Source: a virus. From it: a DNA stretch of 59,895 nt. Made by a program: the position numbers and the translations under genes. The first letter of the stretch is position 1, and the number at the start of each line of letters is the position of its first letter. The stretch is from the IMG/VR virus record IMGVR_UViG_3300045988_040622, one strand, 5' to 3'. The notes under the pieces are model-generated. The model made no database searches. It saw only the letters and a program-made list of their open reading frames with translations, and was not told where the DNA came from. This document shows positions 29,334-51,057 of this stretch, piece after piece.

Positions 29334-30194
29334 TTAAGCTACTACTGATTCCCATTCAGATTTCAGCTTTTCTACATCGTTTTCAAAAAGTTTGCAAGCG
29401 ATTTCGTACAACTGCGGAATCATTCCCATTTCCCTGTCGATATAATCCATCTTGTTTCTTACTTTCGGTTTGAGTGTACACCCTTCCATCCTTGATTTAA
29501 GGTTGCAGTGATATTTCCTTTCAAATTCTCCATAAAGCAATGAATAGCGTTCTTGATACTTTCCATCGGCACCGAAACGGACAATCTGCGTTATCCGCTG
29601 TCTCTTAGTTGCCAAGTCAATATCATCAACGAGTCCGATAATAACATCTTCTTTATGGATGATTTCTTTCTGCTGCCTTTTAATGGTTTCGTTCTGCTCT
29701 CTAACAGTTTTTAATGTCTGTGAAAATATCAGCTTAGTGTTTTCATCTGCATACGGCAGGTAAGTGGAAATAAATAATTCATCATTATTGACATACCCAC
29801 CTGTTTTACGGATTGTAGGGAGAACCTCGGATGTTACCCAACGTTTGAACTTATGAAGTTTTTCTTTTCTTTCGTTTATAAGGGAGTCGTTTTGTGACAC
29901 ACCCTTTGCTTTCTGTGGTTGCATCTGAAAGAGCAAGGAATACAAACCGCTTTCATTAACAACCGTCATTCTTTGTTTTCCACCGGGAGTATCAATTTGT
30001 GACACACCCTTATCAGAATCATCAATATTTGAAAGGCTTCTTCTGTAATTCGTATCTCCGAATACTTCGCATATATCCTTTCCAACAAACCATGGTTCAT
30101 CATCGACCATGACCATTCTAATCTGTCCGAATATTGGATTCTCAAATACCTCAATGCTGTTTTGAATCTTAAGCATAAGTTGTGATTTTTTCAT
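29334..30194 (-). CDS. Bro-N domain antirepressor-like protein
   Basis: FENPIFGQIRMVMVDDEPWFVGKDICEVFG...ESGLYSLLF is the Bro-N signature. It has its own GGAGG RBS. Confidence 0.7.
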   Translation of the reverse strand: MKKSQLMLKIQNSIEVFENPIFGQIRMVMVDDEPWFVGKDICEVFGDTNYRRSLSNIDDSDKGVSQIDTPGGKQRMTVVNESGLYSLLFQMQPQKAKGVSQNDSLINERKEKLHKFKRWVTSEVLPTIRKTGGYVNNDELFISTYLPYADENTKLIFSQTLKTVREQNETIKRQQKEIIHKEDVIIGLVDDIDLATKRQRITQIVRFGADGKYQERYSLLYGEFERKYHCNLKSRMEGCTLKPKVRNKMDYIDREMGMIPQLYEIACKLFENDVEKLKSEWESVVA

Positions 30195-30427: not shown

Positions 30428-31342
30428 TTATTGTAACCAAGTATATGTATATGCTTCATCAACATATATCTTATAACTGCTCGGATAGATCGTATCGTAA
30501 TTTGAATCGTACGGAAAACTAAACGAGAAATAATCGGTGTCTCCGTTCTTTTCACATTCTGCATAATGATAATCATATTTGATCAAGTTGCCAGATGCAT
30601 CATACATTAAGCAAGAAATTTTCACAAATGAAAAATCTTTTCCGGAATCGTTTGTAGCTTCAACCGTAACATTATCTGCTCCAATGTCCGATTGAACCAT
30701 TATATTGCGAACATCACAAACAGCATTTGTTGCTTCATCAACACTCAACGACATTTTATAGTTATCATAAGAAACATCGTTATAATCAGAATCGCTCGGT
30801 GCGTCAAAATAAAGAACACATTCCTTACCGGATTCAAAAGCTCTGTTACAATCGCTTTTGCTATCCAGCATTTTACCGTTTTTGTAGTATACAAGTTTTG
30901 CGTCCAGATCAACATTTACCTTGTTGTTGTTTTTCAAGATAGCAACAACTCCATGACCACTATCTTGGTATTCAATTGAGATGTTTTTCTTTACCTTGTT
31001 CGCATTAAAGGAAGAAGTGACGGTAACTTTGCAAGAAAGCGTTTTCTTTGCAATTTTTGCTTTTACGTACGTTGTTCCTTCTCCAACCGCCAGAACTTTT
31101 CCAGACTTGTTTACAGAAGCAACATATTTATTGCCACTACTCCATTTAGCAGTTTTCCTCATTCCGCTTATCTTTAATGTTGCGGATTCTCCAATTTTTA
31201 AATTAAGAGTCTTTCTGCTTAATTTGATAGTTGCCGCCTGTGCAACAATCTGTTCCCCATTTGCATTTTGGATTGGCATAGCCGAAATCAAAACGGCAAA
31301 TGCCAATCCCATCGCTACTAATAATTTTTTTGTGTTTCTCAT
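30428..31342 (-). CDS. Secreted protein with signal peptide and Big_2 (bacterial Ig-like) domain
   Basis: Start is trimmed to MRNTKKLLVAMGLAFAVLISAMP after AAAGGAG. ATIKLSRKTLNLKIGESATLKISG...WSSGNKYVASVNKSGKVLAVGEGTTYV is Big_2-like. Confidence 0.65.
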   Translation of the reverse strand: MRNTKKLLVAMGLAFAVLISAMPIQNANGEQIVAQAATIKLSRKTLNLKIGESATLKISGMRKTAKWSSGNKYVASVNKSGKVLAVGEGTTYVKAKIAKKTLSCKVTVTSSFNANKVKKNISIEYQDSGHGVVAILKNNNKVNVDLDAKLVYYKNGKMLDSKSDCNRAFESGKECVLYFDAPSDSDYNDVSYDNYKMSLSVDEATNAVCDVRNIMVQSDIGADNVTVEATNDSGKDFSFVKISCLMYDASGNLIKYDYHYAECEKNGDTDYFSFSFPYDSNYDTIYPSSYKIYVDEAYTYTWLQ

Positions 31343-31404
31343 AATGACTCCTTTCTTGTGATATGATTTATTTAGAATTATATCACGTTCTATTATAGAA
31401 GTCA

Positions 31405-34008
31405 CTAAAAAACATATACATTGTCTCCGGTTCGATTGTAATGTTCTCTACCATAATCCCTTGCAGCTTTTCCTATGTCGTTTGTAGTAATTCCGAAATT
31501 TTTCTGTAAAATAGCTTGTAATAACTGATTTTGTTGTCGCAGTAAGGAAACCTCTTGCGCAGATGTTGAATTGATGGCATCTTTGATTCCGGTAATCTCT
31601 TGGCTTCCTGCAACCGCCGGCTTACCTCCGACCGTTCCCATAAGTTCCGGAAGACCGTTTTCTCCAACCGTTGCTATGCTATATTTATCCATGAAACCGC
31701 CCGTTGCATAAGCCTTTACTTTAGGTAGGCTCACTTTCGGCACAAGATCGACTCCGCTCCACTTTACCTTTGCTACTTTAGCCGCCGCAGAAACAACACT
31801 GTTGAACCCTCTCAAAACGGTATTCACTCCACCGATCAATGAATTTATTGCTGTTTCAATTCTTGAAATTACGGTGTTCATTGCCCCGGCAACGCCACTT
31901 TTCACGCTATTCCATAATTTGCTGAATATTTCAGCTACACTTTCTTTCATCTTCGAGAAAGCATTTTTTATCGGGGTGGTTACATGTTCTTTAAACCAAC
32001 TAGAAACACTGTTCCACGCCCCGGTTACCGCTGTTTTTGCCGCGCTAAATGCTTTCTGAATAGATTCTTTTGCTGAACTAAAAGCATTCTTAATAGGTGT
32101 TGTAACATGCTCCTTAAACCAACCGGAAACCACAGCCCATACCGATTTCACAGTTGTCCATAGAACCTTAAATGCGGTTGATACTGCCGATTTCAATAAT
32201 TCAAAATTCTTCTTTATTGGCTCTATTACCTTTGATTTAAACCAATCAGAAACAACAATCCATACAGCCTTGACAATGATCCACAATCCTTGAAAGATTT
32301 GACCAACTCTTTTCGAAAATCCTTGGAAAAATGAAACAATAGGAGTTATAACATTAGTATTGAACCATCCAGAAACTGTTTTCCATACACCGGATATATC
32401 TTTCCATAAAGAAGAGAAAAAACCGGAAACGGATTTCCATAATCCCTCAAAAAATCCGCTTATTGGCTTAATCACATTAGTATTAAACCAATCTCCGGCT
32501 TTTGAGAAAATTCCTTTTATTTCTTTCCAATGATCCTTGACTACTACAGTTGCCGTTGCAACAGCAGCTACTATTCCTGCGATAATAGCTGCCGGTGCTG
32601 CCGCTACCCCTAAGATAACCGCTCCGACTGCCGTAATCGTAACTCCGACAAGCATAAGCGCTTCATTAAGCCAACTGAATCCGTTCTTTAACATGGTCAC
32701 AAAGTTTGATATTGCAGTAAATGCACCAATCGCAACGGAGCCTATTCCGGTTATTGCTTTTGCAACAGGGCTTATAAATGCAAGCGCACCTTCTGCCGCT
32801 TTACTTCCAAACAAAGCCTTAAATCCTGCCGAAATGGTTGTTCCAACCGTCGCAAATGCCGTCGTTATTTTTCCGGATAATGCGGTAGACAAAGCTGCGC
32901 CAATTCCTTGGTTTGCCGCAATTCCAACACCTAATTTAGATGCAATAGAAGACGCTATTGCTTTTGAAATGGAAGTTCCGATTATATCAAGTGCGGTTTT
33001 TGCAAGATGCAATCCAAGGATTTTTTTGATTGTCAACGCACCGATGATAATTCCAACCGTCTTTACGTCTAAGTTGCTTAAAAACTCCTTTGCTCCGTTC
33101 CAAACATCCTTCCAGGAAATTTTACTTAATGCTGTCGTAACTGCATCAAATGTCCCTTGCGCCCACGAATTAAGCGTTTTAGCCAATAACGCAAAGTCAA
33201 AGTTTTGGAAAAACTTGTTGATTCCGTCTGCGATTGAATTTCCAAATTGTTTCCAATTAAAAGTTGTGCCGAATGAATCTAATCCGTGAAGCACTGTGTT
33301 TAGTGAATTGGCAATCAGTTTTCCGGTTTCTCCGAATAATGTTGTACCTTTTTGCCCTTTAAACAGTCCGTTGAGGAATTGAGCCAATCCTCTTCCAAAT
33401 CCTTCGGCTTTTGCATACACCTCTTTCCATTTAATTTTCTTCATTGCTTTAATTAACGCGCCGGAGATTGCTTTTCCAAGTCCTTCAAGGTCTTTGATGT
33501 CGCTTTTGAATTTCTTAAAAATCGTGTCAGTCTGAACTAGTTTTCCGGTATCTCCACCACCAGAACCACCAACGCCAGAACCAGAGCCAGAACCTTTATT
33601 TCCTGAACCGGATTTTTTGTCTTTACTCTGCTTTGAAATAACCTTTAATTCATCAAATGCACGAGTTGCCTGTTGGATTTCCTTTTTTGCTTTCTTGGCA
33701 TTTTTTGCGATACCACCTGTGTTTTTCCCTGCGTTTCCTGCGGCATTGCTTAAATCGTCCATGCCGTCAGATGCGCTTCCAATATCATCAGCAAGACCGC
33801 TGATTCCTGCCCCTTTGCTTGCTTCATACTTCCATCCGAAGATAGAACCTAAAGCATTTGTTACCATTTCCGCAAAAGAAATCACCTTTTGCAGAACCGC
33901 GTTAAGTACCTTGATAAATGGCTTAAATGCATTGATTAAACCACCACCAACAACCGCTCCAAGTGCTTTGAAGTTCTCTTTAAGCATGGTTATCTGGTTA
34001 TGCCATGT
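31405..34008 (-). CDS. Tail tape-measure protein, predicted exon 2
   Basis: It begins (T)WHNQITMLKENFKALGAVVGGG, the expected continuation of ...GDFARTAD. It has long Gly/Ala/hydrophobic and W-repeat regions. No RBS precedes its only in-frame TTG. Confidence 0.75.
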   Translation of the reverse strand, partial: TWHNQITMLKENFKALGAVVGGGLINAFKPFIKVLNAVLQKVISFAEMVTNALGSIFGWKYEASKGAGISGLADDIGSASDGMDDLSNAAGNAGKNTGGIAKNAKKAKKEIQQATRAFDELKVISKQSKDKKSGSGNKGSGSGSGVGGSGGGDTGKLVQTDTIFKKFKSDIKDLEGLGKAISGALIKAMKKIKWKEVYAKAEGFGRGLAQFLNGLFKGQKGTTLFGETGKLIANSLNTVLHGLDSFGTTFNWKQFGNSIADGINKFFQNFDFALLAKTLNSWAQGTFDAVTTALSKISWKDVWNGAKEFLSNLDVKTVGIIIGALTIKKILGLHLAKTALDIIGTSISKAIASSIASKLGVGIAANQGIGAALSTALSGKITTAFATVGTTISAGFKALFGSKAAEGALAFISPVAKAITGIGSVAIGAFTAISNFVTMLKNGFSWLNEALMLVGVTITAVGAVILGVAAAPAAIIAGIVAAVATATVVVKDHWKEIKGIFSKAGDWFNTNVIKPISGFFEGLWKSVSGFFSSLWKDISGVWKTVSGWFNTNVITPIVSFFQGFSKRVGQIFQGLWIIVKAVWIVVSDWFKSKVIEPIKKNFELLKSAVSTAFKVLWTTVKSVWAVVSGWFKEHVTTPIKNAFSSAKESIQKAFSAAKTAVTGAWNSVSSWFKEHVTTPIKNAFSKMKESVAEIFSKLWNSVKSGVAGAMNTVISRIETAINSLIGGVNTVLRGFNSVVSAAAKVAKVKWSGVDLVPKVSLPKVKAYATGGFMDKYSIATVGENGLPELMGTVGGKPAVAGSQEITGIKDAINSTSAQEVSLLRQQNQLLQAILQKNFGITTNDIGKAARDYGREHYNRTGDNVYVF

Positions 34009-35224
34009 CAATATGTTATCGTAAAGGCTTTTTATCCTCTACTTCTTATGGTTTCCCATAAGTTCGGCGTACATTTTCAACCACAGCATTGTGGCTGTCG
34101 GATACTCTTGGGGATATTATATTCTACACTCTTTCCATAAGAAAAGAGCATAGGTTCAATCCCTACGCTCTACAATGTGCTATAACTTTTATTTTATAGC
34201 CTTATCTCGGTATTAGCTTATTGACTTATCCACTTATAGCCATAAGCAGTTCGCCCCTCTTGGTCAATTACATTATGTATTGCTTTGTAATTAACTCCAA
34301 GAGATTCCCCTGCTTCGGATATTCTATCGAACACTCTTATAATCTCTCTGGTTTTCGCATCCACTTGCGCAATTTTTCTTCCTTTTTTGCGCTTTTTATA
34401 GATGCTCAAATCTTTTATTGGAAAATCTTCTTCGTATACAAAAATATATCCATTTGCCGACTTATAGGTATTTGAAAGCACACCGGAAATAGTTGTTCTA
34501 TTTGCTCCGGTAATCCTAGCCGCCTCCTGCAAACTTTTAAATTTCTGTATAAAATTTCCTTCCATATCACATTGAATAATGCTTCTCATTCCGTTAGGTT
34601 CCGGCTTTCTATAGGTTTTCGCTCCGTTTGATTCATACTCATCCTCAAACATGAACATATAGCCCTTTGTCTGCCGCCTTTTTCCTTTACAATTAAGCAG
34701 AACATCCGTATTATTAAATCCGTCAATTTCTGCATCCATTGCACTATCATAACGCTTAATGTACCGTCCGTCAAGCGTCAGCAAAACAACTGCCCTGGCG
34801 TTATGATACGGCGCGCCTTTCCCACCTTTGGTCATATTATAGCCATCTCGATAGGTGTTAAATTTTTCAATGTAATACTTTTCCAACTCACAGGCTCCAT
34901 CTTCGCTTTCACACGTTTCGATGATTTCCCATGAGAAGTTGTCAAACCCGAATTCTTTAATTGCTCTATGAAAGTCGCAATCTTCTTTTTCGTAGCACCT
35001 TTGATGTTGCCACACTCTGCTATGAAAATCACAAGTTTGACCGACATAAGATTTTCCGTTTATTTTATTTGTTGCTTTGTAGATATAATATGTTCGCATT
35101 AAATCACCTCAAACATATTATACAAAAATGTTCGTGCTAAGTCAACTTAGCCTTCACCGATTTTACCCGATTTTTCATCGACATATTGCTATGCCGCGCG
35201 ACACATGAAACAAAAGTTTCGTTT
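34009..35224 (-). other. Putative group I self-splicing intron interrupting the tape-measure gene
   Basis: A 1216-nt insert lies between the ...GCC GAT and ACA TGG... codons. The upstream exon ends in U and the insert ends in G, and the join is in frame. The flanks are rich in hairpins, including CUUAUGG-GAAA-CCAUAAG and GCUAAG-UUGA-CUUAGC. It contains a GIY-YIG ORF. Confidence 0.6.
34218..35099 (-). CDS. GIY-YIG homing endonuclease (I-TevI-like, with C-terminal DNA-binding repeats)
   Basis: YYIYKATNKINGKSYVGQT...RVWQH...ELEKYYIEKF form the GIY-YIG core. The repeated modules GYMFMFEDE, GYIFVYEED and GYKWIS follow. RBS is GAGGTGA. Confidence 0.8.
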   Translation of the reverse strand: MRTYYIYKATNKINGKSYVGQTCDFHSRVWQHQRCYEKEDCDFHRAIKEFGFDNFSWEIIETCESEDGACELEKYYIEKFNTYRDGYNMTKGGKGAPYHNARAVVLLTLDGRYIKRYDSAMDAEIDGFNNTDVLLNCKGKRRQTKGYMFMFEDEYESNGAKTYRKPEPNGMRSIIQCDMEGNFIQKFKSLQEAARITGANRTTISGVLSNTYKSANGYIFVYEEDFPIKDLSIYKKRKKGRKIAQVDAKTREIIRVFDRISEAGESLGVNYKAIHNVIDQEGRTAYGYKWISQ

Positions 35225-36400
35225 ATCGGCTGTTCTGGCAAAGTCTCCGGTAATATTGGTTGTATGCGCAAGCACATACTGATAACGCAACATGGCTTTT
35301 TGAGCCTGCGTCATTGATGAAATGTTCGCATCAAGCCCTTGCTTTAACGCCCATTCCTTTAATGTTGCCTGTGTCAAGTCGATACCATAACGCCGCATAG
35401 GTGCCGTAGTACCGGAAAATACAGATTGCAGACTCTTGGCAATATCTTCTTGACTCACATCATAGAATGAAGCCATATCTCCGGCTAATTCTGTCAACCG
35501 GATAGACATTTTTGCCATCTGCCCCTGTGGAATATCAAGGGCTGTTCCCATTGCTTGGAAACGGCTTGCAAACTGTTTCGCGGACAGTTCGGACATACCA
35601 AATTTTTCAATTGATGTTTTTGCGAAATTGTTAATTAGGTTTTCATACTGCCCGAATGTCTGCCTTACAACGTTCTCAACCTCTGTCAGTGAGGATGATA
35701 TGTCAATGGCATCTCCAAGTAGCCTAAATCCGCGGAATAAAGCCCAATACGTTGCATACACTTTTCCGATTGCAGACGCAAGAGAAAATGACTTCTTGGT
35801 AACCGCAGAAGCACCGGAACTAAATCCACTAAATGAGCTTGTGATGCTTTTTGCCGCTGTTCCTGCCGCTCCACCGGTACGTGATAATTTTGCCAATGCG
35901 TTTGTCATGTCAATAATATTCCGGCTTACGCTAGGGGCTTTCGACAATTCGGACATAAGCTGACGCATTGCAACCGCAAGTTTTGGTATATTCTCGATAG
36001 CCTTTGTTGAGCTTGTATAACCAAGTTGCTTGATTCCTCCGGCTAATTCCGATAACCCTTGCACCGATTTTGACATACCGGAAAACGAGCTTACCGACTT
36101 TGAAATCTGTCGCATTGCTCCGGCTGCTGCATTTATCTTTCCTGTGTCAATGTTGCTAAGCGTTTTGATGTTTCTTGCAAGAGTCGAGAATGACCTTGAA
36201 TCAACACTGCGCATGGCACTCATTGAGTTTGACAATCGGTTTACTCCGGTTGATAACCGGTTAATTCCGCTAGAATCTATGCTTTGCAAGGATGAAGATA
36301 GCTTTCCCAACCTTGTTATCAGCGCATCAATCTGACCATTAGCCTGTCTTGCCTGTGCTTGAATCTTGACCTCTAAGGTTTCTAATTCCAACAGTTCCAC
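35225..36400 (-). CDS. Tail tape-measure protein, predicted exon 1 (the open frame runs on to a stop at 35189 inside the insert)
   Basis: FGMSELSAKQFASRFQAMG...FYDVSQEDIAKSLQSVFSG...RYQYVLAHTTNITGDFARTAD is the conserved TMP core. After it come 11 unrelated codons and a stop. Confidence 0.75.
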
Positions 36401-36456
36401 CTCCTTTATGTAGTTTTAGAAAAAGGCGGTAGGATTTGACCCCTACCGCCCTTGAA

Positions 36457-37146
36457 TTACTTTTTCAGTTTTCCCTTTTTCAGAAGAGAAATCATCTTTG
36501 AATTTTCCTCTGATGTAAACTTAAAATTGGAAAATCCGTTCTTTTTTGCGATTTCCGCGCGATGTTCTTTCGATACATCATCTTCTCCAACCGCTTTTAA
36601 TGCTTCAACGATTGATCCAGATTTTCCGGTATACATCGAATAATACTTGCTTGCATTTTTCTTTGCTCCAATTACAACGATTGCAGTGTGACCTTTTGTA
36701 CGCGTCACAAGAATGTCCCCGTTGTAAAGCAGTTCTCCGATTCGGTAAGAACCAGCATCGGTAAACAAGCCGGATTTCAAAAGAATGATTCTTTCGTTTG
36801 CAGTATTGAAATCTCCTACATCCTTCCCGAATGCATGGATAATACAAGCGCGTACAAGAGAAGAACAATCGCATTCCGTCTTAACCTTTGCGCTAATGCC
36901 ATGTTTAATGACTCCGTAGCGTTCCGATTGGTCATAGCCGATGTTTTTGTTGCCACACGCAATCTTCATAGCTTCAGCTAACTTCTCCGCAACCTTATTA
37001 TCCTTTGCTCTTAACACATTCCATCCCTTAGAATGGTTGTAAAACTTCTGCGTAGACACTTCCTGTCCGGTCTGGTCTCCGGCTTTTCCGCCAGAATAGC
37101 AGTTTCCGTGTTCATCGTGTCGCGCACTTCCGATAATTACTGCCAT
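36457..37146 (-). CDS. NlpC/P60-type peptidoglycan hydrolase (endolysin or virion-associated lysin candidate)
   Basis: CDCSSLVRACI (catalytic Cys context) and GDILVTRTKGHTAIVVIG (His context), with an extra C-terminal domain. Confidence 0.55.
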   Translation of the reverse strand: MAVIIGSARHDEHGNCYSGGKAGDQTGQEVSTQKFYNHSKGWNVLRAKDNKVAEKLAEAMKIACGNKNIGYDQSERYGVIKHGISAKVKTECDCSSLVRACIIHAFGKDVGDFNTANERIILLKSGLFTDAGSYRIGELLYNGDILVTRTKGHTAIVVIGAKKNASKYYSMYTGKSGSIVEALKAVGEDDVSKEHRAEIAKKNGFSNFKFTSEENSKMISLLKKGKLKK

Positions 37147-37162
37147 GGTAATACCTCTTTTC

Positions 37163-37501
37163 TTAAACTATCTTTGGCTTTGGTAAATGTGATTTCCTTG
37201 ATTCAGCCGCCCATGCTTCTTCCGCCTTAAGCATTTCTCGTATCTCAGCATCGGGATCGTCCGTATTATGCTTTTCGATGGAATCATAGCAAGTTTCTTT
37301 CACGTACTTACTATTACCCTTACCGAATGTAGCATCTATTGCTGTCACAAGTGCTGACGTTGCATATCTGCCAAACCACATATACATTTCCATATCGCGT
37401 TGCTTCCATTCTGTCTTATATGCATCCACATAAGGCTTAAGCAACTCTGGATTCATCATATCTATATCATCAACGGAAAATCCGTAGCCTTTCGTTACCA
37501 C
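37163..37501 (-). CDS. Tail assembly chaperone, -1 frame extension (T part of G-T)
   Basis: It lies in the -1 frame relative to 37543-37968. That frame is open continuously from the slippery site at 37579. Confidence 0.55.
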   Translation of the reverse strand: MVTKGYGFSVDDIDMMNPELLKPYVDAYKTEWKQRDMEMYMWFGRYATSALVTAIDATFGKGNSKYVKETCYDSIEKHNTDDPDAEIREMLKAEEAWAAESRKSHLPKPKIV

Positions 37502-47272: not shown

Positions 47273-48478
47273 TTATTCGTTTGCTTTGAAATTGTAAATC
47301 GGTTTTATAATGTCAACTATTTCAACAGTGTCTTTTATATTTCCAATTATTTCATCCATTGTTTTATATGCCATAGGACTTTCATCAATCGTAGATGTAT
47401 TTACAGATGTTGTAAATATTCCATCCATTGCTTTTTGATACTCTTCTAGCAAAATGCTTTCTTTTGCCTTTGATCTGCTCATTGTTCGACCTGCTCCATG
47501 CGGTGCTGAATAATTCCAATTTTCATTTCCCTTGCCAATTCCCAAAATGCAACCGTCACGCATGTTTATCGGTATCAGTACCCTTTCCCCCATTTTTGCA
47601 GAAATAGCACCCTTGCGGACAATATTTGAATCATGGTCGATATAATTGTGAATGCACTCGAAGTAATCCGGCATATCTACATCAACGCCCCACTCCATAT
47701 GGTTGCATATAATTTGCGCAATCATGACACGGTTGATATATGCAAACTTCTGACAAATTCTCATATCATGCAGATAATCTTCCCTGTATTTGCCCTCTAA
47801 ATAGCACAAATCCTTTGGAATCTTCGGATTAACTGCCTTGAAATTCCTGTGCAACTCTGCTATCGCACTTTGAATTTCAGATTTTCTTCCGGCGGCTTTG
47901 TACTGTTTGATAAGTCTGTCCTGTTCTTCATACAGTTTATCTTTGCCGCTCATAAGTTCAAATGCAAGGTTTTGATAATAGTCAGCTACCTGTTTCCCGA
48001 GATTACGGCTACCGGTATGAATAACAAGATACTTTTCTCCATCTTCCGCAATATCAATCTCAATGAAGTGATTCCCGCCGCCAAGAGTGCCGATAGACCG
48101 CTCAAGCCGTTTTGTATCTCGTAATTCTCGGTAGCACTTCAAATCCTGTAATTCCTCAAATCTGATGATTCTTCCCTCATGCACATCTCTTCCGCTTGGA
48201 ATATAAGAACGAATCACGTTATCCAGCTTTTCGAAGTCAATATCTGCCTGACCAAGGCTTACGCAAAGCATGCCACAACCAATATCAACGCCGACAATGT
48301 TCGGGATAACCTTTTCCCCAAGGTCTGCCGTAAATCCAATAACACATCCCTTTCCCGCGTGAACATCCGGCATGATACGAACTTTACAATCTTTGAATGC
48401 ATCCTGTGCAAGCAATAATTCAATTTGATCTACCGCTTCCTGTTCAACGTTCTTGGTAAATATTTTCAAATCACTCAT
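47273..48478 (-). CDS. rtcB: RtcB RNA 3'-phosphate ligase
   Basis: 401 aa. MPDVHAGKG, GGGNHFIEI, HTGSRNLG and APHGAGR are the conserved RtcB metal and GTP motifs. Confidence 0.9.
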   Translation of the reverse strand: MSDLKIFTKNVEQEAVDQIELLLAQDAFKDCKVRIMPDVHAGKGCVIGFTADLGEKVIPNIVGVDIGCGMLCVSLGQADIDFEKLDNVIRSYIPSGRDVHEGRIIRFEELQDLKCYRELRDTKRLERSIGTLGGGNHFIEIDIAEDGEKYLVIHTGSRNLGKQVADYYQNLAFELMSGKDKLYEEQDRLIKQYKAAGRKSEIQSAIAELHRNFKAVNPKIPKDLCYLEGKYREDYLHDMRICQKFAYINRVMIAQIICNHMEWGVDVDMPDYFECIHNYIDHDSNIVRKGAISAKMGERVLIPINMRDGCILGIGKGNENWNYSAPHGAGRTMSRSKAKESILLEEYQKAMDGIFTTSVNTSTIDESPMAYKTMDEIIGNIKDTVEIVDIIKPIYNFKANE

Positions 48479-50330: not shown

Positions 50331-50359
50331 TCTTTCGTTTGATATAAATATTCCGCAAG

Positions 50360-50444
50360 CGCAGTGTATAGGATTCGAACCTACAAGGCGAATAAACGCC
50401 CGACCGGATAGCAACCGGCTCCAATTCCATTATGGGAACACTGC
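50360..50444 (-). tRNA. tRNA-Ser(GCU), type II with long variable arm
   Basis: GCAGTGT...ACACTGC acceptor, anticodon stem GCCGG/CCGGT with loop TTGCTAT, variable arm CGGGCGTTTATTCGCC, T arm GTAGG-TTCGAAT-CCTAT. Confidence 0.75.
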
Positions 50445-50609
50445 CGAATTGACAAGATGCACTCGATCAAAGGCTACCAAACGCATAGGGATATTTTCGA
50501 GTGTCCTGTCTGAACTGCTTTTGTTGTACTTCCTACTCACAGCCTGTTTGTTGTGCGTTTCTTTTATAACCACTCGCATACTCCGCTAAAGAATGCGCAA
50601 GACCTCTCG

Positions 50610-50681
50610 TTGGGATTGCAGGAATCGAACCCGCGACAACCCGGATATAAGCCGTGTCTTCTACCACTGAATTAAATCCCA
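50610..50681 (-). tRNA. tRNA-Ile(UAU)
   Basis: TGGGATT/AATCCCA acceptor, anticodon loop CTTATAT (anticodon TAT), T arm GCGGG-TTCGATT-CCTGC. The anticodon stem has one mismatch. 72 nt. Confidence 0.7.
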
Positions 50682-50687
50682 ATACAG

Positions 50688-50758
50688 TGATCGGTACGAG
50701 ATTCGAACTCGTGTTACCACCGTGAAAGGGTGGTGTCTTACCGCTCGACTAACCGATC
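50688..50758 (-). tRNA. tRNA-Glu(UUC)
   Basis: GATCGGT/ACCGATC acceptor, CCACC-CTTTCAC-GGTGG anticodon arm, ACGAG-TTCGAAT-CTCGT T arm. 71 nt. Confidence 0.85.
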
Positions 50759-50985
50759 ATAACCGCCACGAGACGGTTAGCAATATGTTTTACGTGCTAT
50801 GCGTTACACGATCATGCGCCGTGGGATAGACGCATGATAGAATACCACCGGACGGTCTCGCACCGTCCTTAACAGAATCGTCCTAGTGGCGAAAGGAGGA
50901 ACCCAAATGCTTGAATCACTCAACCAAGGGTTCAAGTACATATGAAAAACATACGTGGCTACATGGAACGTCAGCATGTAACCAA

Positions 50986-51057
50986 TTAGGCTACCGGGAT
51001 TCGAACCCGGGAATACAGGAATCAAAATCCTGTGCCTTACCGCTTGGCGATAGCCCA
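50986..51057 (-). tRNA. tRNA-Gln(UUG)
   Basis: TGGGCTA/TAGCCTA acceptor, CAGGA-TTTTGAT-TCCTG anticodon arm, CCGGG-TTCGAAT-CCCGG T arm. 72 nt. Confidence 0.85.

What the first reader, a model, noticed from the sequence alone, without database searches (positions are those of the whole stretch)
34009..35224. Tape-measure gene interrupted by an intron-like element carrying a GIY-YIG homing endonuclease
The conserved tape-measure core ends at ...ITGDFARTAD (codon GAT, 35227-35225). It then runs into 11 unrelated codons and a stop.

The expected continuation (T)WHNQITMLKENFKALG resumes 1216 nt downstream, in an ORF with no RBS and only a TTG.

Joining ...GCC GAU to ACA UGG... is in frame. The upstream exon ends in U and the insert ends in G, which is the group I rule.

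The insert carries an I-TevI-like GIY-YIG ORF with its own RBS. It is flanked by about 125 nt and 209 nt of hairpin-rich non-coding sequence, including a GAAA tetraloop hairpin.

Self-splicing introns are known in phage genes. An essential tail-length ruler that depends on RNA splicing would still be worth documenting.
Basis: partly seen in the sequence, partly recalled or inferred. Interest (0 to 1): 0.8.

Follow-up and report, generated by a model that had tools for sequence, protein, structure and literature searches.

The report
Group I intron splitting tape-measure gene
A phage tail tape-measure gene is interrupted by a 1216-base mobile group I intron carrying its own GIY-YIG homing endonuclease gene; the call is correct, but introns of this family in tape-measure genes were already described in 2008.

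Summary
On the minus strand, a tape-measure (TMP) gene is split into exon 1 (36400..35225) and exon 2 (34008..31405) by a 1216-nt insert (35224..34009).

- **Junction.** One TMP profile runs across it without a gap (positions 356|357). Uninterrupted homologues read ...GDFARTAD|TWHNQ.... A 97%-identical intron-less allele breaks its DNA alignment at exactly these bases.
- **RNA.** The insert folds as a group I ribozyme of the IA type. Covariation in 24 relatives gives 92.8% paired cells against 34-42% in slid controls. A guide sequence pairs with both exons (P1 with U·G, P10). P7 has a bulged base, P9 carries a GAAA loop, P5 holds its receptor, and the last base is G.
- **Endonuclease.** The GIY-YIG/NUMOD1 gene sits in the loop of P5a and has its own RBS and a promoter-like site.
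- **Rfam.** RF00028 misses this whole family. A model built from 23 relatives, excluding this copy, hits 34215..34009 at 157 bits and nowhere else in the window.
- **Spread and precedent.** The family occurs in at least 120 viral contigs, 138 phage records and 48 plasmids, in several genes. Group I introns in TMP genes were published by Tourasse and Kolstø in 2008.

Verdict: a real feature, correctly interpreted, and a new member of a known kind. Splicing itself was not tested.

The parts
35225..36400 (-). TMP exon 1 (392 codons, GTG start). Its last four bases, CGAU (35228..35225), form the 5' strand of P1.
   Evidence: phrog_1535 profile positions 3-356. DNA alignment with the intron-less allele L125 ends at 35224.
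34009..35224 (-). Group I intron, 1216 nt. It starts AAACG and ends ...GAUAACAUAUUG, so the last base is G.
   Evidence: Insert boundaries from the intron-less allele. Structure and covariation.
35199..35206 (-). Internal guide sequence AUGU|GUCG. GUCG pairs with the exon 1 end CGAU (P1, with U·G at the splice site). AUGU pairs with the exon 2 start ACAU (P10).
   Evidence: The same arrangement, with different sequences, occurs at six other insertion sites (L001, L003, L004, L113, L115, L118).
35179..35196 (-). P2 hairpin CGGCAUA-GCAA-UAUGUCG. The in-frame stop UAG that ends ORF A (35191..35189) lies partly in its loop.
   Evidence: L001 has an equivalent GCAA-capped P2.
35156..35170 (-). P3 5' strand UCGGG, J3/4 UAAAA and P4 5' strand UCGGU.
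   Evidence: All five P3 pairs and two P4 pairs show changes on both sides. This stretch is the only conserved 5' block found by BLAST.
35146..35151 (-). 5' half of an 11-nt-type GAAA tetraloop receptor in P5 (GCUAAG). Its partner is UAAGC at 34220..34216.
   Evidence: Sequence read. L078 and L124 carry the canonical CCUAAG...UAUGG. Its role is inferred from established group I knowledge.
35138..35145 (-). P5a 5' strand UUGACUUA. It pairs with UAAGUCAA (34228..34221, the last codons of the endonuclease ORF), so this helix closes the loop that holds the ORF.
   Evidence: Equivalent closing helices with unrelated sequences occur in L011 (11 bp), L012, L053, L091 and L009.
35117..35145 (-). Sigma-70-like promoter TTGACT-17-TATAAT upstream of the endonuclease gene.
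   Evidence: 11 of 12 consensus matches. It is conserved as TTGATT-17-TATAAT in L009. Function is inferred.
34218..35099 (-). GIY-YIG homing endonuclease gene, 293 aa, with the RBS GAGGTG.
   Evidence: Pfam GIY-YIG, NUMOD1 and I-HmuI NUMOD-like. phrog_314 homing endonuclease, 1e-30. I-TevI catalytic domain 1LN0/1MK0, with the Arg, Glu and Asn positions conserved.
34207..34220 (-). Receptor 3' half UAAGC (overlapping the stop codon), P5 3' strand, J5/4 AAU and P4 3' strand ACCGA.
34174..34206 (-). P6 (GAU/AUU) and P6a (GCUAUAA/UUAUAGC).
34164..34170 (-). P7 5' strand G[A]GCGUA with a bulged A. It pairs with UACGCC (34071..34066). The invariant G-C pair next to the bulge is the expected guanosine-binding site.
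   Evidence: 100% of cells paired. Two pairs alternate (AU 17 / GC 7 and AU 12 / GC 12), and the G-C pair is invariant in 24 of 24. RNAalifold finds the same helix.
34111..34163 (-). P7.1 (GGGAU/AUCCC) enclosing a P7.2 hairpin (CUCUUUUC/GGAAAGAG). This extra domain is characteristic of subgroup IA.
   Evidence: P7.1 is 100% paired and all five pairs covary. The MFE fold recovers it.
34098..34102 (-). P3 3' strand UCCGA. This pairing crosses P7, forming the pseudoknot.
34066..34097 (-). P8 (CAGCCACA/UGUGGUUG), J8/7 AAAAUG and P7 3' strand UACGCC.
34009..34062 (-). P9 (CUUAUGG-GAAA-CCAUAAG), P9.1 (GUAGAGG-AUAAAAAG-CCUUUAC) and the conserved tail GAUAACAUAUUG, which ends in the terminal G.
   Evidence: The tail motif is found in at least 120 viral contigs. 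The family model match ends exactly at 34009.
31405..34008 (-). TMP exon 2 (867 codons plus stop). It begins ACA UGG, and no RBS or ATG is available at its start.
   Evidence: phrog_1535 profile positions 357-1078..

Best explanation
This is a mobile group I intron of subgroup IA (IA1-like) inserted in the most conserved block of a siphovirus-type tape-measure gene, between the codons for Asp392 and Thr393.

**Inferred mechanism**
- The tail operon is transcribed through the intron.
- A ribosome translating exon 1 stops at a UAG in the P2 loop, 34 nt into the intron.
- The RNA folds into the P3-P9 core. P5a closes off the 882-nt endonuclease ORF as a loop. The L9 GAAA tetraloop is expected to dock on the receptor in P5.
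- The guide sequence AUGU|GUCG aligns both exons.
- A free guanosine bound at the G-C pair of P7 attacks after U35225.
- The freed exon 1 then attacks after G34009. This joins GCC GAU to ACA UGG and gives mRNA for a 1259-aa TMP.
- The GIY-YIG enzyme is made from its own promoter-like site and RBS. It is expected to cut intron-less TMP alleles in co-resident phages near this site, so the intron is copied in by repair (homing).

**Shown:** anatomy, homology, covariation, exact boundaries and patchy distribution.
**Inferred:** catalysis, endonuclease activity and homing.
For: **Exact, in-frame interruption**
- A single TMP profile is contiguous across the junction.
- Uninterrupted homologues span it.
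- The intron-less allele defines 35224..34009.

**Homology of the non-coding flanks**
- The 3' flank matches 138 phage records and 48 plasmids at 68-93% identity. These lie in terminase, TMP, head and other genes.
- The 5' and 3' blocks co-occur with or without an ORF between them.

**Structure**
- 72 pairs in 24 sequences are 92.8% paired, against 34-42% when slid. 52 pairs have compensatory changes, and 0 of 500 shuffles reach this value.
- RNAalifold on 23 relatives without this copy recovers P6, P6a, P7, P7.1, P8, P9 and P9.1. 30 of its 39 pairs are compensated.
- The MFE fold of the 3' 209 nt gives the same helices, z = -5.8.
- The family covariance model gives 157.4 bits, E = 2.5e-38, covers the full model length and ends at 34009.

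**Splice-site logic**
- P1 and P10 are complementary to the local exons at seven different insertion sites.

**ORF placement**
- The P5a closing helix covaries among ORF-bearing copies.

**Mobility signature**
- The same intron and endonuclease, 97-100% identical, occur in 8 viral contigs.
- Endonucleases 55-65% identical sit at the same TMP site in TMPs only 50-56% identical.
- A 97%-identical TMP lacks the intron.

**Precedent**
- PMC2504315.
Against: - Rfam RF00028 gives no hit on the window even at E <= 10. It also gives none on ORF-less relatives.
- P1 has only four exon pairs.
- The receptor 3' half is UAAGC rather than UAUGC, because the stop codon overlaps it.
- A terminator-like hairpin (34171..34145) could compete with P7.
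- No RNA or biochemical data were available, so splicing and homing are untested.
Confidence: 0.9

Rival explanations
1. A free-standing GIY-YIG endonuclease gene has inserted into the TMP gene. The two halves are now translated as separate polypeptides that assemble without any RNA splicing.
For: Gene callers and database records treat the halves as separate proteins. Many 400-aa exon 1-only proteins are on record, and split TMP CDSs are annotated in CBP1 and BMBtp13.
Against: - Exon 2 has no RBS and only a TTG start.
- The flanks form a covarying ribozyme fold that an ORF-only insertion would not need.
- The guide sequence pairs with both exon ends.
- ORF-less copies split genes in the same way.
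- The boundaries restore the motif with no residue gained or lost.
Confidence: 0.03
2. This is a decayed group I intron that no longer splices. The TMP would then be a pseudogene in a defective prophage.
For: Splicing was not tested. The copy has a short P1, a receptor variant and a possible competing hairpin.
Against: - All core helices and invariant positions are intact, and the model score is full length.
- Both exons remain open, at 392 and 867 codons.
- The endonuclease ORF is intact and its catalytic residues are conserved.
- Near-identical copies recur in 8 independent viral contigs.
Confidence: 0.05
3. The interruption is of another kind: a group II intron, an intein, or translational bypassing.
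For: None specific.
Against: - No reverse transcriptase or domain V-like element is present.
- The ORF is out of frame, has its own start, and is not fused to the host protein.
- A 1216-nt gap is far beyond any known bypass.
- The fold is that of a group I intron.
Confidence: 0.01

Closest known systems
Group I introns TMP-IVS1/2/3 and term-IVS1/2 of Bacillus cereus-group prophages (Tourasse and Kolstø 2008, PMC2504315)
   Same: - They are group I introns of class IA1 or IA2 inside TMP genes, at conserved sites.
- Homologous ribozymes occur in TMP and terminase genes, with P1 re-tuned to each site.
- Some carry an H-N-H or a GIY-YIG endonuclease gene.
- The 3' core of this intron matches the B. 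cereus 03BB108 plasmid between terS and the portal gene, where term-IVS2 was reported.
- It also matches the second intron of the B. thuringiensis phage BMBtp13 TMP.
   Different: - The host lineage differs. This is a gut-type phage, and the nearest annotated relatives are in Clostridia.
- The TMP family differs, and the insertion site (D|T in GDFARTAD-TWHNQ) could not be aligned to the Bacillus sites.
- Here a GIY-YIG gene sits in a TMP intron. The published TMP intron with an endonuclease gene carries an H-N-H gene.
Phage T4 td intron with I-TevI
   Same: It is a subgroup IA intron in an essential phage gene. A GIY-YIG endonuclease is encoded in a peripheral loop and has its own expression signals. 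The catalytic domain is similar to I-TevI.
   Different: - In td the ORF lies in the P6 extension; here it lies in the P5a loop.
- The DNA-binding part here is of the NUMOD1 / I-HmuI-like type.
- Protein similarity is weak (E = 4e-4).
- The host gene is structural rather than for nucleotide metabolism.
Rfam RF00028 Intron_gpI
   Same: The overall P1-P9 topology is the same. An RF00028-type intron even shares the TMP gene of BMBtp13 with a member of this family.
   Different: The model does not detect this family at all. The J6/7-P7 and J8/7-P7' sequences differ from the R/S consensus: GUAGAGCGUA and AAAAUGUACGCC here, against GUUCAaAGACUA and AAGAUAUAGUC.

Membership tests
Group I intron | Conserved P3-P9 core with the P3/P7 pseudoknot and the P4-P6 domain | tested here: met
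   72 pairs are 92.8% paired, against 34-42% when slid. 52 pairs are compensated. An independent RNAalifold run agrees.
Group I intron | P1 helix formed by an internal guide sequence, with a U·G wobble at the 5' splice site, and P10 formed with the 3' exon | tested here: met
   CGAU/GUCG and ACAU/AUGU in this copy. Both pairings track the exon sequence at six other insertion sites.
Group I intron | Terminal G at the 3' end of the intron | tested here: met
   The intron ends ...AUAUUG at 34009. That boundary is fixed by the intron-less allele and by the end of the model match.
Group I intron | Guanosine-binding G-C pair in P7 next to a bulged nucleotide | tested here: met
   G[A]GCGUA/UACGCC. 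The G-C pair is invariant in 24 of 24 sequences, and the outer pair alternates G-C with A-U.
Group I intron | Match to the curated covariance model RF00028 | tested here: not met
   No hit at the gathering score or at E <= 10. ORF-less relatives are also missed. I read this as a coverage gap in the model, not as evidence against the fold.
Group I intron | Removal restores an uninterrupted, conserved host reading frame | tested here: met
Group I intron | Guanosine-dependent self-splicing | not testable with these tools
   This needs in vitro transcription with GTP and Mg2+, or RT-PCR.
Subgroup IA (IA1-like) | Extra P7.1/P7.2 helices between P7 and the 3' strand of P3 | tested here: met
   P7.1 is 100% paired and all five pairs covary.
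Subgroup IA (IA1-like) | Sequence homology to published IA1 phage introns (TMP-IVS3, term-IVS) | tested here: inconclusive
   BLAST hits fall in B. cereus 03BB108 pBFI_4 between terS and the portal gene, and in Staphylococcus phage ROSA. Both are named in PMC2504315. The published intron sequences themselves were not aligned.
GIY-YIG homing endonuclease | GIY-YIG catalytic domain with conserved Tyr, Arg, Glu and Asn positions | tested here: met
   Pfam PF01541, 36.5 bits against a cut-off of 22.6. The alignment to I-TevI keeps the R27, E75 and N90 equivalents.
GIY-YIG homing endonuclease | C-terminal DNA-binding modules | tested here: met
   NUMOD1, 44 bits, and I-HmuI NUMOD-like, 41 bits.
GIY-YIG homing endonuclease | Site-specific cleavage of the intron-less allele, and homing | not testable with these tools
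   Only indirect support: patchy presence and absence among close TMP alleles.

The most novel reading that the evidence does not exclude
The intron may do more than splice itself out. A near-consensus sigma-70 promoter overlaps the 5' strand of P5a. In this copy a terminator-like hairpin also competes with P7. Together they could form a switch that separates endonuclease expression from splicing. Such a switch could make TMP supply, and so tail assembly, depend on RNA folding or on translation through exon 1.
Probability: 0.08. Interest if true: 0.5.

Novelty: new member of a known kind. Interest (0 to 1): 0.25.

Why it matters
- **Annotation.** The two "tape measure" ORFs and the nuclease between them should be annotated as one 1259-aa TMP gene with an intron. 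The same correction applies to many deposited phage records, including CBP1, BMBtp13, crAss-like phage cr128_1 and Sextaecvirus genomes.
- **Detection.** A large family of phage group I introns escapes the standard Rfam model. Split structural genes in viromes are therefore likely to be under-recognised. A dedicated covariance model would find them; the one built here scores 157 bits.
- **Biology.** It adds one more case of an essential virion gene that depends on RNA splicing. This was already documented in 2008.

Tried and rejected
- **Rfam scans.** Scans of the window at the gathering score and at E <= 10 gave only tRNAs and noise.
- **Rfam on relatives.** Scans of 24 related loci gave RF00028 hits only on other introns in those contigs, not on this family.
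- **BLAST of the 5' flank.** It gave only 26-30-nt matches at E about 0.1-0.5. These became useful only because they co-locate with the 3' hits.
- **Host identification.** One genome-contig scan with exon 1 gave only 26-44% identical hits in MAGs of doubtful binning, so the host stays unassigned. It is probably a member of Clostridia, judging by the nearest intron relative in C. butyricum and a Clostridium sp. homologue name.
- **Bacillus and Caldibacillus TMP sites.** tblastn found no alignable similarity, so I cannot say whether it is the same site.
- **Local hairpin GCUAAG-UUGA-CUUAGC.** I considered it as P5 and rejected it. The receptor plus long-range P5a reading fits better, because P5a covaries in other ORF-bearing copies.
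- **Extended -10 element.** I checked for one at the internal promoter, and it is absent.

Full report
**What is in the sequence**

All elements lie on the minus strand.
- ORF A (36400..35189, 403 aa) ends ...ITGDFARTAD, followed by 11 unrelated codons and a TAG.
- A 293-aa ORF (35099..34218) follows. GAGGTG lies 5 nt before its ATG.
- ORF B (34011..31405) follows after a further 209 nt. It starts at a TTG with no Shine-Dalgarno sequence and reads (M)TWHNQITMLKENFKALG.
- The middle ORF carries GIY-YIG, NUMOD1 and I-HmuI-type NUMOD domains above Pfam's cut-offs.
- Its catalytic domain aligns to I-TevI (1LN0/1MK0), with the Arg, Glu and Asn positions kept.

**The split is exact**

- The PHROG tape-measure profile phrog_1535 matches ORF A up to profile position 356 and ORF B from position 357.
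- Joining GCC GAU to ACA UGG is in frame and gives 1259 aa.
- A search of 5.8 billion proteins with the joined region found uninterrupted homologues that read GDFARTAD-TWHNQITMLKENF with no indel. P0001 is 97% identical.
- The contig encoding P0001 (L125) aligns to window 37200..35224 and then to 34008..31000. The two blocks meet at one shared base.
- The insert is therefore 35224..34009. The U-before and G-last rule resolves that ambiguity.

**The generic model fails, but the flanks are a conserved RNA**

- Rfam found no group I match in the window, either at the gathering score or at E <= 10.
- The 3' flank nevertheless matches 138 phage records at 68-93% identity. These include phages of Streptococcus thermophilus, Staphylococcus, Clostridium, Clostridioides, Oenococcus, Caldibacillus and Bacillus, and a crAss-like phage.
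- It also matches 48 plasmid-borne prophages.
- The matches lie between split terminase, tape-measure or head genes.
- A short 5' block co-occurs in the same records, either about 100 nt or about 1.1 kb upstream of the 3' block. The core therefore exists both with and without an ORF.

**Structure**

Reading ORF-less relatives against this copy gave a complete group I layout.
- P1: exon CGAU with guide GUCG, and a U·G wobble at the splice site.
- P10: exon 2 ACAU with AUGU, immediately 5' of that guide.
- P2 is capped by GCAA.
- P3 is UCGGG/UCCGA, followed by J3/4 UAAAA.
- P4 is UCGGU/ACCGA.
- P5 holds an 11-nt-type tetraloop receptor (GCUAAG...UAAGC).
- P5a (UUGACUUA/UAAGUCAA) closes the ORF-bearing loop.
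- P6 and P6a follow.
- P7 is G[A]GCGUA/UACGCC, with a bulged A.
- P7.1 and P7.2 are present. These are the hallmark of subgroup IA.
- P8 is followed by J8/7 AAAAUG.
- P9 carries a GAAA loop.
- P9.1 is followed by the tail GAUAACAUAUUG.

Four tests support this layout.
- On a MAFFT alignment of 24 members, 92.8% of cells pair, against 34-42% when partners are slid. 52 of 72 pairs show changes on both sides, and no shuffle out of 500 reaches the observed values. P3, P7 and P7.1 are 92-100% paired.
- RNAalifold on 23 relatives that exclude this copy independently predicts P6, P6a, P7, P7.1, P8, P9 and P9.1. 30 of its 39 pairs are compensated.
- The thermodynamic fold of this copy's 3' 209 nt gives the same helices, z = -5.8.
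- A covariance model built from those 23 relatives hits the window once, at 34215..34009. The score is 157.4 bits, E = 2.5e-38, over the full model, and the match ends at the proposed 3' splice site.

**Splice-site logic**

At seven different insertion sites, the bases just 5' of P2 are complementary to the last 4-6 bases of the local upstream exon. That pairing always ends in U·G. The bases immediately before them are complementary to the first 4-6 bases of the downstream exon. This is the group I guide-sequence mechanism, and nothing else explains it simply.

**The ORF is a passenger**

- Among ORF-bearing copies the helix that closes the loop has unrelated sequences but stays complementary. 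L011 has 11 bp, and L012, L053, L091 and L009 have their own versions.
- Family members carry different nucleases. BMBtp13 has an HNH gene and B. subtilis plasmids have a NUMOD3 protein.
- A promoter-like site, TTGACT-17-TATAAT, precedes the ORF in this copy. It is conserved in a relative whose nuclease is 63% identical.

**Mobility signature**

- The same intron and nuclease, 97-100% identical, recur in eight viral contigs.
- Nucleases 55-65% identical sit at the same D|T site in TMPs only 50-56% identical.
- A TMP that is 97% identical in the junction-region protein lacks the intron.

**Context**

The window is a siphovirus-like genome. It encodes DnaB, a large terminase, an SPP1-type portal, a capsid protein, tail genes, an endolysin-like protein just upstream of the TMP, RtcB and five tRNAs. 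No second copy of the intron is present.

**Comparison with what is known**

- Tourasse and Kolstø (2008, PMC2504315) described group I introns of class IA1 or IA2 at three sites in TMP genes of B. cereus-group prophages.
- They also described homologous introns in terminase genes with re-tuned P1 helices. One TMP intron carries an H-N-H gene, and a homologous terminase intron carries a GIY-YIG gene.
- They list a TMP intron in Lactobacillus phage JCL1032.
- This element matches DNA in B. cereus 03BB108 at the place where their term-IVS2 lies.
- It is therefore a further member of a described kind, in a different host lineage and at a different TMP site.

**Limits**

- No RNA or biochemical evidence was available.
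- Subgroup IA1 is inferred from P7.1/P7.2 and from indirect homology.
- The host is not identified.
- P1 is short, at 4 bp.
- One receptor base differs from the consensus.
- A terminator-like hairpin overlaps P7.

I put 0.9 on "functional group I intron with a homing endonuclease gene".

Noticed in passing
window 47273-48478 (-) and 50359-51057 (-): The phage encodes an RtcB RNA ligase (Pfam 208 bits) close to a cluster of four tRNA genes (Ser, Ile, Glu, Gln). This looks like a tRNA repair and supply module and is unrelated to group I splicing.
   Followed up: partly
window 35117-35145 (-): A near-consensus sigma-70 promoter (TTGACT-17-TATAAT, 11 of 12) lies inside the intron and overlaps the 5' strand of P5a, just upstream of the endonuclease RBS. 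It is conserved as TTGATT-17-TATAAT in relative L009.
   Followed up: partly
window 34145-34171 (-): A terminator-like hairpin (AGAGCGUAGG...CCUAUGCUCU plus a U-run) lies 47 nt after the endonuclease stop codon. It is mutually exclusive with the P7 5' strand and P7.1. The P7.2 insertion that allows it is absent from L009-type relatives.
   Followed up: partly
L004 2369-2587 and 2909-4035 (Bacillus phage BMBtp13, KX190832): The TMP gene of this phage is annotated as three "tape measure" CDSs. It holds two unrelated group I introns: an ORF-less one that Rfam detects (97 bits), and an HNH-bearing member of the Rfam-blind family studied here.
   Followed up: partly
L002 about 1373-1760 (crAss-like phage cr128_1, NC_055885): An ORF-less member of the same intron family splits the major head protein gene. 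The two halves are annotated as "hypothetical protein" and "major head protein".
   Followed up: partly
L001 about 1464-1717 (Staphylococcus phage PG-2021_67, MZ417341): An ORF-less member sits in a TMP gene at a different site (...STIVNLG|NNMAAQ...). Its P1 (UGGGU/GCCCA) and P10 (AAUAAC/GUUAUU) are tuned to that site.
   Followed up: yes
L125 4040-4120 (Logan ERR4088416_650): The intron-less allele differs from this window only by synonymous changes clustered at the insertion site: GCACGTACAGCAGAT|ACG against GCCAGAACAGCCGAT|ACA. One of these changes would weaken P1. This could reflect co-conversion or resistance to the endonuclease.
   Followed up: no
L124 5424-5683 and L111 864-1122: Viral contigs that carry a member of this family also carry a separate RF00028-type group I intron elsewhere. 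Some of these phages are therefore multi-intron genomes.
   Followed up: no
window 36457-37146 (-) and 29334-30194 (-): An endolysin-like-domain (ELLD) protein is encoded directly upstream of the TMP, and a Bro-N domain protein sits inside the tail module. The intron-less relative L125 has both at the same places.
   Followed up: no
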